DNA from: a phage
Length of the DNA stretch: 64,000 nucleotides
Direction: 5' to 3' (one strand)
Assembly (NCBI GenBank): GCA_012557565.1
Contig: GCA_012557565.1_3926.1
The notes beneath the pieces are model-generated. The model saw only the letters and a list, made by a program, of their open reading frames with translations. It made no database searches and had not been told where the DNA came from. Made by a program: the position numbers and the translations under genes. Shown piece by piece: positions 3,007-47,859 of this stretch; the stretch's first letter is position 1; each line of letters begins with the position of its first letter.

Positions 3007-3579
3007 ATGTTTAACAAAATAGGAGTGCAAATGAAGAAATTTGTTTTAGGTTTGTGCTTATTCTTTACAGCACATTTAGCTACAGCATCTGACTGTCCAG
3101 AACTTACAATCAGTCAGAAAGTAAATATGTTAAAAGCATATAACTATGGCGAAGGACAGATGGGAAAAGGTTGGGGAATACCTTTAGCAGCTATAGCCTT
3201 ACAAGAGTCACAATTAGGTGTCATGTTAGAAAATAAAAGGACTCATGATTATGGTGTTTTCCAGAATCACTTGAAGACTGTTGTAAAGCGTAACAAAATA
3301 TCTCCAAAGGTTGCTAAGAAGAAGTTGGTAAGTGACTTCCATTACTCAGCAAAAGAGGCTCATAAAGAGTTGCTATTCTGGACAAAGGTTCACGGTAACC
3401 CAGATGGAAAGTACTCTATGAAGCGTGTCCTAGCTTCTTATAATGCTGGTTACAAATATAAGATTCCAAAGGCTAGACAATATTCTCAAGATGTGTACAA
3501 TAACATGAAATTGCTTGCTCAATGTGAGTTTGCAACAAACATTAAAAAGGTAAAATATGAGCGAATCAAAACAATTTGA
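3007..3579 (+). CDS. secreted lytic transglycosylase-like protein (SLT-like)
   Basis: N-terminal signal-peptide-like segment MKKFVLGLCLFFTAHLATA; segment AIALQESQLG...YGVFQ resembles the SLT-domain catalytic Glu-Ser region. Confidence 0.45.
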   Translation: MFNKIGVQMKKFVLGLCLFFTAHLATASDCPELTISQKVNMLKAYNYGEGQMGKGWGIPLAAIALQESQLGVMLENKRTHDYGVFQNHLKTVVKRNKISPKVAKKKLVSDFHYSAKEAHKELLFWTKVHGNPDGKYSMKRVLASYNAGYKYKIPKARQYSQDVYNNMKLLAQCEFATNIKKVKYERIKTI

Positions 3580-14009: not shown

Positions 14010-14258
14010 ATGGCAACTATCCGCGCAACTGTTAACAATTTTGGTTTTTATGCTCTGGACGTTAAGTTTGACATGGTAAACACTGGAAATGCTTTTGATA
14101 TGGTTGATATGTGTCTGAAAGCAACTGTGAAAGAATACAACCCTGCTGAATGGTTCTGGAAAGAAACGAAAGAGGAGATTTTAGCAAATGGCGTTTTATC
14201 TTACTATTGGGGCGATTCTCTTATCTCTATCTATTACGATAAAGAAGGCCGCAACTAA
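14010..14258 (+). CDS. hypothetical early protein (start trimmed from track 13938)
   Basis: ATG at 14010 behind conserved leader; promoter with hairpin in spacer at about 13938-13970. Confidence 0.55.
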   Translation: MATIRATVNNFGFYALDVKFDMVNTGNAFDMVDMCLKATVKEYNPAEWFWKETKEEILANGVLSYYWGDSLISIYYDKEGRN

Positions 14259-14300
14259 CAAGACGCCGCAACGGGGCAAATAGCCCCAGACACCTTTACA

Positions 14301-14321
14301 GCCCCTTCAATGGGGCTTTTT
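14301..14321 (+). terminator. rho-independent terminator ending the early array
   Basis: GCCCC-TTCAAT-GGGGC hairpin followed by TTTTT. Confidence 0.6.
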
Positions 14322-14699
14322 GACGTCTATACAGAACCCTTCCTAGAATCTTACCAGACCTTTAGAATAATAACTCTATAGCTTACTCTATATCATCTTA
14401 TCAAGTCAACTAACTTTTCCCTTAAATATAAGCCCATAACCCGAAAGGGAAGGGCAATCCCTAAAACGCCCTAAAACGCTCTATACGGGCTTATCATCTC
14501 ATCTTAAGCAATCATATTAACCACTTCTTAAAAGCCCTTTATAGAGCTTTCTAGAGCCTTAAAAGAATCTTATAAGGGGTATAAGCTTTATTATCTCGTT
14601 AGTATCTTGTGAATAGTTAAACAGGGGCTTGATAATAGCTTCAAAGTATGCTATGGAGTCTAAAAAGAGCTTAAAAGTAACGTAAAAGTTAGCCCCCTT

Positions 14700-15200
14700 T
14701 ACATTCTCTTAACAAAATCTTAACAAATGCAACATAGTTATGCTTGTTAGCCCCTTGTTAAATCCTTGTTAGTGGTATGTTAAGAGCTTGTTAGACACTT
14801 TGAAGTCCCTGTATAAGCCCCTGTAAAGGGCTATAAAGAGCTATATAGTCAGTTGGGCTATAGATACTAGTAAGAACCTTAGAAGAGGTCACACAGAGCT
14901 ATACAGGGCTTTTAAGAGGTATGTTTAGAGAATCACTGAGAGGGATAGGGAACGATAAGAGAAGAGATAGTGACCATGTTAATAGATTGTTAAACATGTT
15001 AAGAACTTAATAGACACTTGTTAATAATCTTAACAAAATAACTTTTAAATTTAACATGTTAGGGACTTGTTAGCATCTTGTTAGAACCTTGTAAGAACTG
15101 TTAAGCACTTGTTACACCCTTGTTAGTTCTGTTAAGAAACTGTTAAGAACTTTAGAGACTTGTTAGGGACTTGTTAGAGTTGTAAAGAAATTGTTAATGA
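14700..15200. repeat. cluster of short phased repeats (CTTGTTAG / CTGTTAAG and inverse TTAACAA), about 10-12 bp apart
   Basis: 15 or more copies of TTGTTA(G/A) or TGTTAAG, densest at 15055-15180; no ORF over 60 aa. Confidence 0.7.
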
Positions 15201-15265
15201 TATTTTAAGATTTTGCAAAGGGGATGTTACAGGGCTGTTAAGGGCTACTAAGCAGATATACATCC

Positions 15266-15289
15266 ATGAGGTAGATTCTACCGAATCCA
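15266..15289. repeat. 24-bp element ATGAGGTAGATTCTACCGAATCCA, copy 1
   Basis: Near-identical second copy at 15889-15912; each contains an internal palindrome. Confidence 0.6.
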
Positions 15290-15589
15290 CTAGTAGATAT
15301 TTTTCAGATTCTCCCAAGAACCTAAAAAGTGACCTACCTAGTCTATTTTATAAAAATTTTATAGAACTGAATAACTATCTATACACTATCTTATATAAAA
15401 CAGGAATTAACAGGCTTATAAGATATCTTGTTAGTAACGTGTTAGACCTTGTAGGATAAGCCTTAGAAGGGAATACCTGTTTAGTGTTATATAACAGTCT
15501 ATATAGAGGCTTAGTAATCCCTAGTGATTCTGCTATATAGGGTACTATCTTGGACATAATGGGTTACTGTTAAGTAACACAGATAACCT

Positions 15590-15790
15590 AGAGATTAAGA
15601 TGGGTATAGGGGCTTCTAAGGGGCTAGGAAGAGGTTAGGAAGGTGATTGTATAGGGTTGATTAATGGTAGGCTTAGAAGGCTTTATAGAGGGCTATATAG
15701 AGAGCACTATTTAGGGACTAAGAGGCTATATAGATACTATATAATACTATATAGAGATGATGCTTAGAGAGGGTGTTTAGAAGGGTATAG
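15590..15790. repeat. second short-repeat cluster (GGCTATATAGAG-like and CTTAGAAGG-like motifs)
   Basis: Repeated CTATATAG and TTAGAAGG words; further copies near 14840, 15461, 15500, 15530. Confidence 0.6.
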
Positions 15791-15888
15791 ATATTTTATC
15801 ACATATCATGGTGACCCAAGATGAACGGAGTGAATCCCAAATTTTATAAAAATATAAATTTCGTAAATTTTACTCAATAAAAACCCCT

Positions 15889-15912
15889 ATGAGATAGATT
15901 CTATCGAATCCA
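15889..15912. repeat. 24-bp element ATGAGATAGATTCTATCGAATCCA, copy 2
   Basis: Matches copy 1 at 22 of 24 positions; lies just beyond the 3' end of minus-strand CDS 15933-16604. Confidence 0.6.
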
Positions 15913-15932
15913 TTTTAAGGGGCTGTATAGTC

Positions 15933-16604
15933 TTACATCAATTCACTAAGCATGGCTTGCAATGAAGTTTTAGAAGTCTGGAAGAAGTGTGTGAACCCAT
16001 TATGACGTTCTCTTACCTGAATCATTATCTGGTCACCCTTAATCGGGTGTGAACTAATATGGTATTCATTCATGTTCAGTACAACACCCAAACCATCTAT
16101 AATGTGTCTGAGTATGTCATATTCAACAAATTCTTCTTTACCTGTGACCTTGATACAAACACCTTTGTTGGTTCTCTTAGGGTTTATATCTTCCATAACC
16201 AGCATTTGTTGTCCACCAAGAGAAATCATAGAGAACTCTTTACGGTTCTGCTGCTTAACATACATCTCAAGTTTCTTCAAAGTATCTTCAAAGAACGGAT
16301 AAGATTTCTTGACAAAGATACCTTCAAGTGGCTCTTTACCTGAATCTTCTCGTTCCATCTTAAGTCGATTAACAAGTAATTCTAAAGACCACTTCTCACT
16401 TTCATCAAGATATGTATTGATATCATCTAGACTCAGTACCAGATACTTTCTTTCAAGTTCAAACTTTTTCATCTCTATCAAATCCTTAAAACATTTCTTA
16501 GTAATTGCTTCCCATTCTTCGGAGTTCTTTCTCTTCCTCTTCAGATGGGGAACCATATCTGTTAAGTTCTTCCAACTCTTCTTCAGTAGGTGTCCCATAA
16601 TCAC
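15933..16604 (-). CDS. hypothetical protein
   Basis: 223-aa ORF; last gene of the minus-strand block. Confidence 0.55.
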   Translation of the reverse strand: MIMGHLLKKSWKNLTDMVPHLKRKRKNSEEWEAITKKCFKDLIEMKKFELERKYLVLSLDDINTYLDESEKWSLELLVNRLKMEREDSGKEPLEGIFVKKSYPFFEDTLKKLEMYVKQQNRKEFSMISLGGQQMLVMEDINPKRTNKGVCIKVTGKEEFVEYDILRHIIDGLGVVLNMNEYHISSHPIKGDQIMIQVRERHNGFTHFFQTSKTSLQAMLSELM

Positions 16605-42636: not shown

Positions 42637-42864
42637 ATGCAGACCCCGCTGACTGACGGGGCTGTAGAGGCAACTTATCAAGAAGCAGATGAGATGAAAT
42701 TTGTGCTTGCTATTTACGGTATGGACGGGTGTAAAGAAACACTCGACCAACTTTTTAATATGACATTCGTTGACTTATTATCTCTGCGTCAGTATCTGGA
42801 AATCCAGAAGTCATATAAAGAGGAATTGGCTTACAACGAACTTAGAAAAGCAGGTAAAATTTAA
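42637..42864 (+). CDS. tail assembly chaperone frameshift extension (GT-like C-terminal part)
   Basis: 75-aa ORF in the -1 frame relative to upstream chaperone, ending at tape measure start. Confidence 0.5.
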   Translation: MQTPLTDGAVEATYQEADEMKFVLAIYGMDGCKETLDQLFNMTFVDLLSLRQYLEIQKSYKEELAYNELRKAGKI

Positions 42865-45097
42865 TGGCACAATATACAGTTGATAGTTTTATTGTTGAAC
42901 TTGGATTCAGTGAAAAGGTTGTTAAGGGTTTACAGAGAGTTGAGAAAATGGCTATGCAGTCTGCTCAACGTATCGAACGTAATATTAATAAAGCCTTTGA
43001 CGTGAAACCTAATAAGAGTTCCCAAGACGCTCTAAACAGACTTGTAAAGAATGCTCAGACTGCTTCAGGCAGAATCAATAAAGCACTCAACAACTCCCTT
43101 AACCTTGATTCACAAGGTGTTAAATCTCTTAAAAGACTGGAAACTCAAGGTAGAAAAACTGCCAAGGGAATTAACAAGGCTTTAAGAGACGCTATGAAAG
43201 TTGATGGAAAAGTAACTATTCGTGGTGGTAGAAAAGGTGGTACTGGTTTCCCTCCTACAGGTGGGAGTGGCAACCCAAGACCTACAAGACCGGATATTGC
43301 TCAGAGACAGATGGAAAGAATGTTTAACAACAACTTCTATTCTGGTCTGACACGTCGCCTTGAAACTATTGGTGGACAAGGCAACCAAATGGCAGCTTCC
43401 TTCAGAGGAAACTTACAAGGTCTTTATAACAAATATAAGGGAACTGGTAAAGTCGGTGAATATGAGATGGAAGTCAAAAAGCTCATTGACGTTACCAAGC
43501 GTTGGGTTATTGCAGAAAATGCTAGACTCAAGTCAGTCAGAGAATCAGCTTGGCTTCAGGAAAGAGCTAACTCATCTCTACGTCAGATGATTGGTGGTTT
43601 TGTTTCAGCTTATGCAGCCTTAGAATTGGCTCAGAAAACGATTGATGCAGGTGTTAAAAGACAGTCTGCACAGTTAGCCTCAACAGCTATCTTTGGAGCA
43701 GATACACAACAAGCTAGAATGTTCGCTGCAACATTTGCTCACCAGATTGGTCAGAGTTACACAAGCACTATGAAACAGTATTCAAACTTTGCTGCTGGTG
43801 CTCAACCTGCACTTGGTTTTGAAGGGACTCAAGAGTTCTACAAGAATGCTGCTATGTTCTCCCGTATCAGGGGTGCTAGTGATGAAGACTTGAAAGGTAT
43901 CATGGTTGCTTTCCAACAGATGGCATCTAAAGGTAAGATTCAGGCTGAAGAACTTCGTGGGCAGTTAGGTGACCGTTTAGCAGGTGCTGTACAGCTATTC
44001 GCTGATGCTATTGGTAAGACACCACAAGAACTTGATAAACTTATGAAAGATGGTAAGCTTCTTGCTAATGAAGTTCTACCAAAAGTCTCTGAGAGAATGG
44101 CTGAACTCGTAGAAGCAGCAGGTGGTATGAATGCCGTATCTAAGCAGACAGCTACCTCAATGGGTCAAGCAAAAGCTATGTGGGATAACACGCTTGTAGC
44201 ACTGTTCAACAACTCTAGTGAAGGTATTTCACAACTCTCTAACTCTATTGCAATGTTCTTGCAAGGTTCACTTGGTACATCTCAGGCACTTGGTACAGGT
44301 ATTGGTTACCTTTTGAAAGGTGCTAGTAACCTTCTGGACTTTGTGACAGACATTATGTATCGCATCTCTTCATTGTACTACACCTCAATGGGGTATTTCA
44401 AAGAGTTGGATGCAAGCCAACAGAAACTAATTAAAGATTCTGCTGAGTTAGTTGCAACATTCACAGCTATTGGTGTTGCAATTGCAGCTATTACAAAAGT
44501 TGCTAAAATCTTTGGTGGTACTGTAGCATTTGTCAAGAGTATTTTTGAAGAAGGTATCTTAGCTAAGATTGCACAGAAGTTTGGGTTAACTACAGCAGCA
44601 GAAACAGCAGCTACAACGGCTGGTGTATCAGCAACCAGAATGGCTCTTGGTGTAGGTGGTTCTGCATTAATGTTATCTGGTTCAGTTGACAAGAATGCTG
44701 GAAAGAGATTTAACGAGGTTAACACACCTAATCCTTTCAATGAAGCTATCTCAGGAATCACTAATCCAAAACGTCCAATGTTCTTTGACCAGAATGGACA
44801 ACTTCAGTTTGCACAATATACCACAGACACTTCTGGAAATATTCAGAGGGTTGATAATGGTTTGTCAAATTGGGATATTATCATGAACAACCTGTCTGAG
44901 TCTCTAAATAACTTTGCAAACAAGTTTAACCAGACACCTATGATGATGACTCCCTCTGGACTACCATTGCAAACTAAGCAGACGCTTAACGTTTCCTTTA
45001 ATCTGGATGGTAAGCAGATTGCTACTAAGATGGTGGATATCACTGATAAGAGTCAGGAAGATATTCTGTTAAACTCTAGCTACCCAGAGGATGAATA

Positions 45098-45098
<1 letters not shown>
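42864..45098 (+). CDS. tail tape measure protein
   Basis: 744-aa ORF after chaperone pair; helical N-terminal part and Gly/Ala-rich hydrophobic C-terminal segment. Confidence 0.65.

Positions 45099-47859
<2,761 letters not shown>

What the first reader, a model, noticed from the sequence alone, without database searches (positions are those of the whole stretch)
15266..15912. Two copies of a 24-bp palindrome-containing element bracket a 620-bp segment
ATGAGGTAGATTCTACCGAATCCA (15266-15289) and ATGAGATAGATTCTATCGAATCCA (15889-15912) are near-identical direct repeats, each with an internal palindrome, and the second abuts the 3' end of the minus-strand block. Direct repeats bracketing a segment can mark an insertion or deletion boundary, a small mobile element, or paired protein-binding sites.
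Basis: seen in the sequence. Interest (0 to 1): 0.4.

Follow-up and report, generated by a model that had tools for sequence, protein, structure and literature searches.

The report
Tiny hairpin cassettes scattered in phage
The two 24-base repeats are real, but they do not mark the ends of a 620-base unit: each is a separate copy of a very small hairpin-forming cassette that comes and goes at many non-coding sites in Felix O1-like phages, and one copy forms the top of a transcription terminator.

Summary
In detail: 24-mers at 15266-15289 and 15889-15912 differ at two positions, and both changes keep a 13-bp palindrome intact. The "bracketing" reading is not supported.

The window is an Ounavirinae (Mooglevirus-like) phage. 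In 18 relatives the DNA between the copies (599 nt in the window) is always present (544-613 nt). Either copy, both or neither can be absent as a precise 24-25 bp indel.

The same cassette, or 25-35 nt variants, fills at least eight polymorphic sites:
- Seven lie in the ~1.7 kb non-coding DNA around the direct terminal repeat.
- One lies in a tRNA spacer. The window fills it with a third, diverged copy at 27825-27848 (-).

Compensatory changes support this fold, and the wobble pairs exist only on that strand.

Copy 2 sits at the apex of the intrinsic terminator of the leftward gene block (predicted -12 to -19 kcal/mol). Copy 1 is an orphan 16 bp outside the terminal-repeat boundary.

The likeliest reading is a miniature dispersed hairpin element that acts as an RNA 3'-end stem-loop. 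How it spreads is unknown. An E. coli island with Ounavirinae-like tail genes carries at least four further cassettes.

The parts
15266..15289 (+). It is an orphan copy 16 nt to the right of the inferred right edge of the direct terminal repeat.
   Evidence: Exact sequence. It is a precise 24-25 bp presence/absence indel among relatives. 33 phage records carry it at this site. Covariance model R1 scores it at 43.2 bits.
15889..15912 (+). Cassette copy 2 (site 2), inserted at the apex of the terminator hairpin of the leftward gene block.
   Evidence: Relatives with the empty site have a plain GCCCC-AATT-AAGGGGC terminator. R1 scores it at 46.3 bits.
27825..27848 (-). Cassette copy 3 (site 7), a diverged copy: ATGA-AGTTGA-C-TCAACT-GAATCAA. 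It lies in the spacer between tRNA-Arg and tRNA-Ser, inside a pre-existing longer hairpin. The tRNA-cluster transcript (+ strand) carries the hairpin-forming orientation.
   Evidence: A scan for the generic architecture finds only these three copies in the window and none in shuffles. R1 scores it at 34.7 bits. A 23-24 nt indel at this position is absent in Henu11, BPSELC-1 and pinkbiff.
15873..15925 (-). Two-tier intrinsic terminator of the leftward block. The lower stem is AGCCCCU/AGGGGUU, the upper 8-bp stem and GAUA loop are supplied by copy 2, and a UUUUUAUU tract follows.
   Evidence: RNA fold gives -19.1 kcal/mol with z = -3.15. The orthologous 41 bp is annotated 'terminator' in the Moogle, Michonne, Mordin and Maleficent records. 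The simple terminator scan misses it because the loop exceeds 8 nt.
15933..16604 (-). Last ORF (223 aa) of the leftward gene block, whose transcript ends at the terminator above.
   Evidence: Homologues were found in six related viral contigs.
14692..15249 (.). Direct terminal repeat of the phage genome, inferred by homology and present once in this window. It is filled with CTTGTTAG-type iterons at about 11-bp spacing.
   Evidence: The HP1 record annotates a 570-bp repeat at both ends, and its residues 1 and 570 align to window 14692 and 15249. The pEP20 record is linearised at exactly the same CTACC|AAGCAG junction. UAB_Phi87 has an experimentally determined 608-bp DTR (PMC4837284).
14300..14321 (+). 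Intrinsic terminator of the rightward block (AGCCCC-TTCAAT-GGGGCT-TTTT). Its loop is cassette site 4, which is empty in this window.
   Evidence: -12.2 kcal/mol. The site is filled, in the same orientation relative to transcription, in SUSP2, BPS15Q2, skuden, JK55, pinkbiff and two IMG/VR contigs, one of which has SUSP2's length.
14328..14357 (.). Empty cassette sites 5 (14328|14329) and 3 (14356|14357).
   Evidence: Site 5 is filled in KPS64 and L018, with partial-deletion derivatives in L007, ESh19, L004 and L017. Site 3 is filled in Sf18, KPS64, BPS15Q2 and skuden; Moogle's site 3 copy carries a further 31 nt in its loop.
14628..14629 (.). Empty cassette site 6.
   Evidence: Only KMM4 carries a 27-nt insert here, TATGAGATAGGACTCTATCGAATCCTA.
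15462..15464 (.). Empty cassette site 8, which lies inside the DNA between copies 1 and 2.
   Evidence: Sf18 carries a 35-nt variant here, with stem GTTGATTC/GAATCAAC.

Best explanation
The two repeats, plus a third diverged copy at 27825-27848, belong to a family of very small (24-35 nt) hairpin cassettes dispersed in the non-coding DNA of Ounavirinae (Felix O1-like) phages. Each copy is its own unit of gain and loss, and the pair does not delimit a 620-bp element.

There the cassette reads 5'-(A/G)UGGAUUC-GRUA-GAAUCUA(Y)-CUCAU. It folds into an 8-9 bp stem with a tetraloop, followed by a short conserved tail. A second, mutually exclusive 5-bp hairpin (GRUAG/CUAYC) is also conserved.

Shown: sequence, copy number, eight polymorphic sites, structure conservation, and placement of copy 2 at the apex of an intrinsic terminator.

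Inferred: the cassettes act as RNA. Copy 2 adds an upper tier to the terminator of the leftward operon, which would strengthen termination or protect the 3' end. Copy 1 lies downstream of that terminator in the same orientation, 16 nt outside the terminal-repeat edge, and has no U-tract. It is either a read-through hairpin or a passenger.

Unknown: how copies reach new sites. Candidates are template switching or microhomology-mediated copying between hairpins, and an enzyme acting in trans. Exchange between co-infecting phages then shuffles filled and empty alleles.
For: - Identity of the window: Ounavirinae, closest relative KMM4 at 93%.
- Independence of the copies: all four presence/absence combinations occur, with the intervening DNA always present.
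- Eight polymorphic sites with unrelated flanks.
- Decay products: microhomology deletion derivatives, and extra sequence nested in cassette loops.
- The cassette is dispensable: Sf13 has no complete copy in the region around the terminal repeat, the only region fetched for it.
- Restricted distribution: only three copies in 64 kb. There are none outside the terminal-repeat region in the part of KMM4 that stands in for the ~24 kb of genome missing from the window. Each of six full-length IMG/VR contigs has one exact 19-mer match.
- Structure: the 8-bp helix is 91.3% paired, with 2 pairs changed on both sides. The 5-bp helix is 95.4% paired, with 3 pairs changed on both sides. Slid controls give 23-46%.
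One subtype has gained a whole extra base pair. The complementary strand folds better in 14 of 18 variants.
- Terminator effect: predicted -12.2 kcal/mol when empty, and -19.1, -21.5 or -24.9 when filled. Depositors annotated this region as a terminator.
- Orientation: in the three transcription units of known direction (sites 2, 4, 7) the transcript carries the stem-tetraloop orientation. Sites 1 and 3 have the same orientation with respect to read-through.
- Not previously described: no Rfam family matches and no paper in the library contains the sequence.
Against: - No RNA data were available. A strand-specific single-stranded DNA hairpin (G.T wobble) fits the covariation equally well.
- Sites 5 and 6 have the opposite orientation relative to the nearest known transcription unit.
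- Copy 1 has no U-tract, so it has no obvious terminator role.
- No target-site duplication, no consistent target motif and no candidate transposase was found, so 'mobile' rests only on distribution.
- Repeated precise loss from ancestrally filled sites, together with recombination, could produce much of the patchiness.
- The covariation comes from 13-18 related sequences and few independent events.
- The clustering of seven of eight sites around the terminal repeat is not explained by an RNA 3'-end role.
Confidence: 0.55

Rival explanations
1. The cassettes are DNA-level sites connected with genome ends. They would be hairpin- or cruciform-forming sequences recognised by the terminase or an end-processing or replication protein, or used to prime duplication of the terminal repeat during concatemer processing.
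For: - Seven of eight phage sites lie within about 700 bp either side of the terminal repeat.
- Copy 1 starts 16 nt from the CTACC|AAGCAG junction, which two independent records use as a genome end.
- An E. coli island with Ounavirinae-like tail genes shares 126 bp of non-coding DNA with the window. That stretch spans the repeat edge and the site 1 cassette. The cassette plus the next 15 nt is identical to the Moogle-type sequence (my count).
- From memory, not tested here: a hairpin intermediate next to the T7 concatemer junction was proposed by Chung, Nardone and Hinkle in 1990.
Against: - No site is filled in every phage. HP1, whose repeat is annotated, lacks site 1. Sf13 has no complete copy in the region around its terminal repeat.
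- Position, number and orientation vary.
- One site lies in the tRNA cluster, 12 kb from the repeat.
- Variants change loop length from 3 to 31 nt, which a duplex dimer site would not tolerate.
- The wobble asymmetry points to a single strand.
Confidence: 0.15
2. The cassettes are functionless by-products of mutation. Quasi-palindrome template switching and slippage in the single-stranded, recombinogenic DNA near the genome ends copies and deletes short hairpins. The apparent compensatory changes arise from self-templated correction rather than selection.
For: - The cassettes cluster near the ends.
- Partial derivatives are bounded by 3-8 bp microhomologies (TCTAT, CTAT, TAGAATCT), and nested insertions occur.
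- The cassettes are dispensable.
- No transposase or target duplication was found.
Against: - The cassette is 24/24 identical between phages whose flanks are about 75% identical.
- The conserved single-stranded tail and tetraloop are not explained by palindrome correction.
- Wobble pairs fall consistently on one strand.
- Both terminators carry the cassette in the same orientation relative to transcription.
- At least four further copies sit in an unlinked E. coli island.
Confidence: 0.2
3. This is the first reader's reading: the two direct repeats are the boundaries, or the recombination sites, of a 620-bp insertion, deletion or mobile segment.
For: The two copies are direct repeats 623 bp apart. 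Small serine recombinases act on sites of similar size; this is general knowledge.
Against: - The segment is present in all 18 relatives, whatever the state of either repeat.
- No relative lacks it.
- The repeats vary independently of each other.
- No recombinase homologue is detectable in the window.
- The palindrome has an odd centre, unlike serine recombinase crossover sites as I recall them.
Confidence: 0.02

Closest known systems
Bacterial REP/BIME-type and similar miniature intergenic hairpin repeats (REP, ERIC, Correia elements)
   Same: These are short, imperfectly palindromic, dispersed in non-coding DNA and often located just after genes. They vary in presence between strains. When transcribed they can stabilise upstream mRNA or act as terminators. 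This comparison rests on general knowledge.
   Different: The cassettes here are smaller (24-35 nt against about 35-150 nt). They sit in a virulent phage genome with only 1-3 copies per genome. Most are confined to the DNA around the terminal repeat. Some are inserted at the apex of existing hairpins. No RAYT- or IS200-type enzyme was identified. The 18-mer is absent from enterobacterial representative genomes.
PeSL (promoter-early stem-loop) cassettes of T4-type phages
   Same: Both are repeated intergenic stem-loop modules in virulent phage genomes that differ between close relatives and are thought to move by recombination. This comparison is from memory.
   Different: A PeSL includes an early promoter, is longer, and flanks variable genes. 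The cassette here has no promoter, flanks no variable gene, and is inserted on its own.
Rho-independent (intrinsic) terminators with extended or two-tier hairpins
   Same: Copy 2 together with its flanks meets the definition: a G+C-rich stem, a U-tract, and a position right after a stop codon on the transcribed strand.
   Different: The upper tier is a separable module of foreign origin. It is absent from the orthologous terminator of close relatives and is also found at non-terminator sites.
Packaging-site mimicry by phage satellites (P4 cos, PICI pac/cos)
   Same: An E. coli island of about 11.5 kb carries an integrase-type recombinase, tail genes resembling those of a candidate helper phage, and a short stretch homologous to the phage's terminal-repeat edge plus cassette.
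   Different: Nothing shows that the island is mobilised or packaged. This is a resemblance only.

Membership tests
Intrinsic (rho-independent) terminator (copy 2 with its flanks) | G+C-rich stem-loop immediately followed by a U-tract on the transcribed strand | tested here: met
   The stem is AGCCCCU...AGGGGUU followed by UUUUUAUU. The fold gives -19.1 kcal/mol with z = -3.15.
Intrinsic (rho-independent) terminator (copy 2 with its flanks) | Located just downstream of a gene on the same strand | tested here: met
   The stop codon of the minus-strand ORF at 15933 is 21 nt from the cassette. Four related records annotate this region as a terminator.
Intrinsic (rho-independent) terminator (copy 2 with its flanks) | Termination demonstrated in vivo or in vitro | not testable with these tools
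   No transcript data were available.
Intrinsic terminator (copy 1) | U-tract after the hairpin | tested here: not met
   On the minus strand the hairpin is followed by CCUCAUGGAUGUAUAUCUGC. On the plus strand the T-run lies 17 nt beyond the 13-bp palindrome's hairpin.
Miniature dispersed hairpin or mobile repeat (REP/MITE-like) | Several copies at unrelated non-coding sites | tested here: met
   There are three copies in the window, eight sites across relatives, and at least four further copies in an E. coli island.
Miniature dispersed hairpin or mobile repeat (REP/MITE-like) | Precise presence/absence polymorphism between close relatives | tested here: met
Miniature dispersed hairpin or mobile repeat (REP/MITE-like) | Target-site duplication or a consistent target motif | tested here: inconclusive
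   Four of six sites around the terminal repeat have CT before ATGAG. TAT...TAT flanks the cassette at site 5. No consistent duplication was found.
Miniature dispersed hairpin or mobile repeat (REP/MITE-like) | A cognate enzyme that moves it | not tested
   The window's proteins were not systematically screened. Only a serine recombinase was looked for, and it is absent. The island protein labelled 'transposase' has no Pfam match.
Site-specific recombination sites bracketing an excisable segment | A recombinase encoded nearby or elsewhere in the genome | tested here: not met
   tblastn of a small serine recombinase against the window gives nothing better than E = 2. Tyrosine recombinases were not screened.
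Site-specific recombination sites bracketing an excisable segment | Natural variants that lack the bracketed segment | tested here: not met
   The segment is present in 18 of 18 relatives.
Terminase recognition or packaging site | Present in every phage that uses that terminase, at a fixed position | tested here: not met
   Every site is empty in some phage, and Sf13 has no complete copy in the region around its terminal repeat.
Any curated RNA family (Rfam 15) | Score at or above the family's gathering threshold | tested here: not met
   Only tRNAs pass the threshold. Permissive scans of both regions give only chance-level hits.

The most novel reading that the evidence does not exclude
The cassette is an ultra-small element that inserts into non-coding DNA, preferentially at the apex of existing hairpins. 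It may also serve as the recognition module for an Ounavirinae-encoded factor. It is shared between strictly virulent Felix O1-like phages and an E. coli chromosomal island of about 11.5 kb between tonB and yciI. That island carries recombinases, Ounavirinae-like tape-measure and Dit-like genes, and a copy of the phage's terminal-repeat edge. On this reading the island would be a previously unrecognised satellite of Felix O1-like phages, and the cassette would be part of the language it shares with its helper.
Probability: 0.2. Interest if true: 0.75.

Novelty: new variant of a known kind. Interest (0 to 1): 0.48.

Why it matters
Felix O1-like phages are widely used for Salmonella and E. coli typing, biocontrol and therapy, yet the 1.7 kb of non-coding DNA around their terminal repeat is unannotated in most records.

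Much of the small-scale variation there turns out to be gain and loss of one 24-35 nt hairpin module. This gives a handle for strain comparison. It also offers a natural experiment on how an added stem tier changes an intrinsic terminator, and a possible example of an unusually small dispersed element in a virulent phage.

The link to an E. coli island with Ounavirinae-like tail genes, if it holds, would point to a satellite of a phage group for which none turned up in the papers searched here.

Tried and rejected
- **620-bp unit.** Rejected by the alignment of 18 relatives.
- **tRNA fragment or tRNA-like element.** ARAGORN and Rfam find nothing at either copy. My impression of a T-arm resemblance did not survive inspection.
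- **Promoter in or next to the cassette.** The only consensus match touching either copy is a 9-of-12, chance-level site whose -10 hexamer abuts copy 2 (15941-15912, minus strand). The region has 12 such sites against 7.5 expected.
- **Host origin.** An 18-mer scan of 185,579 representative genomes gave 41 hits in unrelated taxa. My estimate of the chance expectation is about 70. None were enterobacteria.
- **Metagenome scan.** My 16-mer pattern was too short. 120 mostly chance loci were returned, and only two were real: L039 and L065.
- **Weak covariance-model hits at 46673, 47144 and 55514.** The first two lie inside a 325-aa ORF. The third, at E = 1.1, was not examined. All three were set aside as chance.
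- **'repeat_region' features in skuden and pinkbiff.** These are unrelated tandem repeats.
- **Serine recombinase next to the cassette in L065.** It belongs to an E. coli island, not to the phage. It is absent from the window, and no Ounavirinae record is among the listed top hits.
- **Left edge of the terminal repeat in that island.** Not found.
- **Literature.** No paper in the library contains the sequence. The two Felix O1-group genome papers I checked do not mention hairpins, stem-loops or palindromes.

Full report
**Observation.**
They are the only matches with up to 3 mismatches in the window, against none in 100 shuffles. Each holds a perfect 13-bp palindrome. The two differences between the copies are the two sides of one palindrome pair. 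Copy 2 ends 21 nt from the stop codon of the last minus-strand ORF, 15933-16604.

**What the window is.**
The region matches 181 phage records, all but one of them named as Escherichia, Salmonella, Shigella or Citrobacter phages or Felixounavirus. The closest is Citrobacter phage BSwM KMM4 at 92.9%. Every record whose taxonomy I read belongs to the Ounavirinae, except pEP20, which carries no subfamily assignment. 25 tRNA genes lie at 25.9-31.2 kb.

The repeats sit in about 1.7 kb of non-coding DNA (14260-15930) between two converging gene blocks. The rightward block ends at 14258 and has a plain terminator at 14300-14321.

Phage HP1 is deposited with a 570-bp repeat at both ends. Its residues 1 and 570 align to window 14692 and 15249. 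The pEP20 record is linearised at the identical CTACC|AAGCAG junction. A 608-bp terminal repeat was determined experimentally for the related UAB_Phi87 by Bal31 digestion and run-off sequencing (PMC4837284).

The window therefore carries one copy of the direct terminal repeat. Copy 1 begins 16 nt outside its right edge.

**The bracketing idea fails.**
I aligned 18 relatives across 14200-15960. Between the two repeat positions every one has 544-613 nt that are 74-98% identical to the window. All four combinations occur:
- Both copies present: the window, KMM4, Moogle.
- Only copy 2: HP1, Michonne, ESh19, KPS64 and two IMG/VR contigs.
- Only copy 1: KMM2, SFPB, VpaE1, BPS15Q2 and one IMG/VR contig.
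- Neither: Sf13, Sf18 and three IMG/VR contigs.

The missing piece is precisely the 24-25 nt repeat in each case. The variable unit is the repeat, not the DNA between the repeats.

**A family with at least eight sites.**
The same cassette or close variants occupy further sites that are empty in the window:

| Site | Window position | Filled in |
|---|---|---|
| 3 | 14356\|14357, inverted | Sf18, KPS64, BPS15Q2, skuden; Moogle, with 31 extra nt in the loop |
| 4 | loop of the rightward terminator, 14306-14311, inverted | SUSP2, BPS15Q2, skuden, JK55, pinkbiff |
| 5 | 14328\|14329 | KPS64, L018 |
| 6 | 14628\|14629 | KMM4 only |
| 8 | about 15463 | Sf18, a 35-nt variant |

Partial derivatives are bounded by short direct repeats (TCTAT, CTAT, TAGAATCT), which points to slippage deletions. 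Sf13 has no complete copy in this region, the only one fetched for it, so the cassette is dispensable there.

A scan for the bare architecture, ATGA then a 5-bp stem, 3-5 nt loop and matching stem, then GAATC, finds a third copy in the window at 27825-27848 (-) and nothing in shuffles. It lies in a tRNA spacer. Here too a 23-24 nt indel is absent from Henu11, BPSELC-1 and pinkbiff, and Moogle carries another variant at the same spot.

A covariance model finds only these three convincing copies in the window. The part of KMM4 that stands in for the ~24 kb missing from the window has none outside the terminal-repeat region. Six full-length IMG/VR contigs each have a single exact 19-mer match.

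**Structure and strand.**
- Across 13 distinct 28-nt versions this helix is 91.3% paired. Two pairs are changed on both sides, and slid controls give 23-43%.
- One column pairs with a different partner in each helix, and all three columns co-vary.

This happens at three different stem positions: the canonical form; site 7 and JK55; and the subtype found at sites 5 and 6. That subtype has also gained a whole extra base pair. The complementary strand folds better in 14 of 18 variants.

This points to a single-stranded, strand-specific form. RNA is the simplest reading, but single-stranded DNA with G.T wobble is not excluded.

**Relation to transcription.**
Copy 2 and the site 4 copies sit at the apex of the two terminators that face each other across the terminal repeat, in the same orientation relative to the incoming polymerase. 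Predicted stability rises from -12.2 kcal/mol when empty to -19.1, -21.5 or -24.9 when filled. The Moogle, Michonne, Mordin and Maleficent records annotate this 41 bp as a terminator.

Copy 3 lies inside a longer pre-existing hairpin of the tRNA-cluster transcript, again in the stem-tetraloop orientation. Copy 1 and site 3 lie downstream of the two terminators in that same orientation, but they lack U-tracts. Sites 5 and 6 do not fit this rule.

**Comparison with what is known.**
No Rfam family matches. No paper in the library contains the sequence, and the Felix O1-group genome papers I checked do not mention hairpins, stem-loops or palindromes. The 18-mer is absent from enterobacterial representative genomes.

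The nearest analogues are bacterial REP-type intergenic hairpin repeats and the PeSL cassettes of T4-type phages. The cassette here is smaller, lacks a promoter, shows no target duplication and has no known enzyme. I file it as a new variant of the dispersed-hairpin-repeat kind, and copy 2 with its flanks as an ordinary intrinsic terminator with a modular upper tier.

**An unexpected relative.**
One metagenome hit, L065, is identical to E. coli 1EC213 chromosome DNA. It lies in an island of about 11.5 kb (excluding an IS21-family insertion) between tonB and yciI. The island contains:
- a large serine recombinase interrupted by an IS21-family element;
- a small serine recombinase;
- an HNH protein;
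- a tape-measure protein 33% identical to the window's gene at 42864-44525;
- a Dit-like protein 65% identical to the window's gene at 45098-45892.

The island carries at least four further cassettes, plus one weaker candidate. It also has 126 bp homologous to the terminal-repeat edge plus site 1. Within that stretch the cassette and the next 15 nt are identical to the Moogle type, while the rest is about 75% identical.

58 complete E. coli genomes hold at least 80% of L065. This fits a satellite or defective relative of Felix O1-like phages, but nothing here shows that it is mobilised.

**Verdict.**
The best-supported account is a miniature dispersed hairpin cassette that works as a transcript stem-loop. 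Copy 2 is built into a terminator. How the cassette spreads, and why it clusters at the genome ends, remains open.

Noticed in passing
L196 (E. coli 1EC213 chromosome NZ_CP061101.1, 2,668,573-2,689,358) and L197; L065 is part of it: An island between tonB and yciI holds a large serine recombinase split by an IS21-family element, a small serine recombinase and an HNH protein. It also holds a tape-measure protein and a Dit-like protein, 33% and 65% identical to the window's genes at 42864-44525 and 45098-45892. It carries at least four further hairpin cassettes and 126 bp resembling the phage's terminal-repeat edge. 58 complete E. coli genomes hold at least 80% of L065. It may be a satellite or defective relative of Felix O1-like phages.
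   Followed up: partly
window 14740-15210: The inferred terminal repeat is packed with CTTGTTAG / CTGTTAAG-type motifs, often 11 bp apart (10-12 copies per family). This looks like an iteron array of unknown role, possibly in packaging or replication.
   Followed up: no
window 14694-14728 and 15200-15234: The two edges of the inferred terminal repeat are inverted repeats of each other: 35 nt, 74% complementary, GCCCCCTTTAC... against ...GCAAAGGGGATG. This is what one might expect if a single enzyme recognises both boundaries.
   Followed up: no
window 14660-14691; relatives in the alignment: Just left of the terminal-repeat edge, a unit of about 21 bp (GCTTAAAAGTAACGTAAAAG) is present once in the window and in roughly two to four tandem copies in most relatives.
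   Followed up: no
window 15480-15760 and 14810-14920: CTATATAG / GGCTATATAGAG-type palindromic motifs are clustered here (repeat families D3, D4 and D7). They share the CTAT/ATAG half-sites of the cassette.
   Followed up: no
window 15882-15888: The lower stem of the window's terminator reads ACCCCT where all the relatives with a filled site read AGCCCCT. This replaces a G-C pair with G.U and draws two U's of the U-tract into the stem (-19.1 against -21.5 kcal/mol).
   Followed up: partly
L006 (Moogle) 3466-3521; L065 608-656: Two cassettes carry a second hairpin nested in their own loop: 31 extra nt in Moogle, and about 28 nt between the stem arms in L065. Hairpin loops therefore appear to be preferred places for further insertions.
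   Followed up: partly
window 26847-26921 and 27949-28023: Rfam's tRNA model scores 30.9 bits at 26847-26921, which ARAGORN does not list. There is also a weak tRNA-like match at 27949-28023 (E = 0.29) next to cassette copy 3. Both may be degenerate tRNA genes.
   Followed up: no
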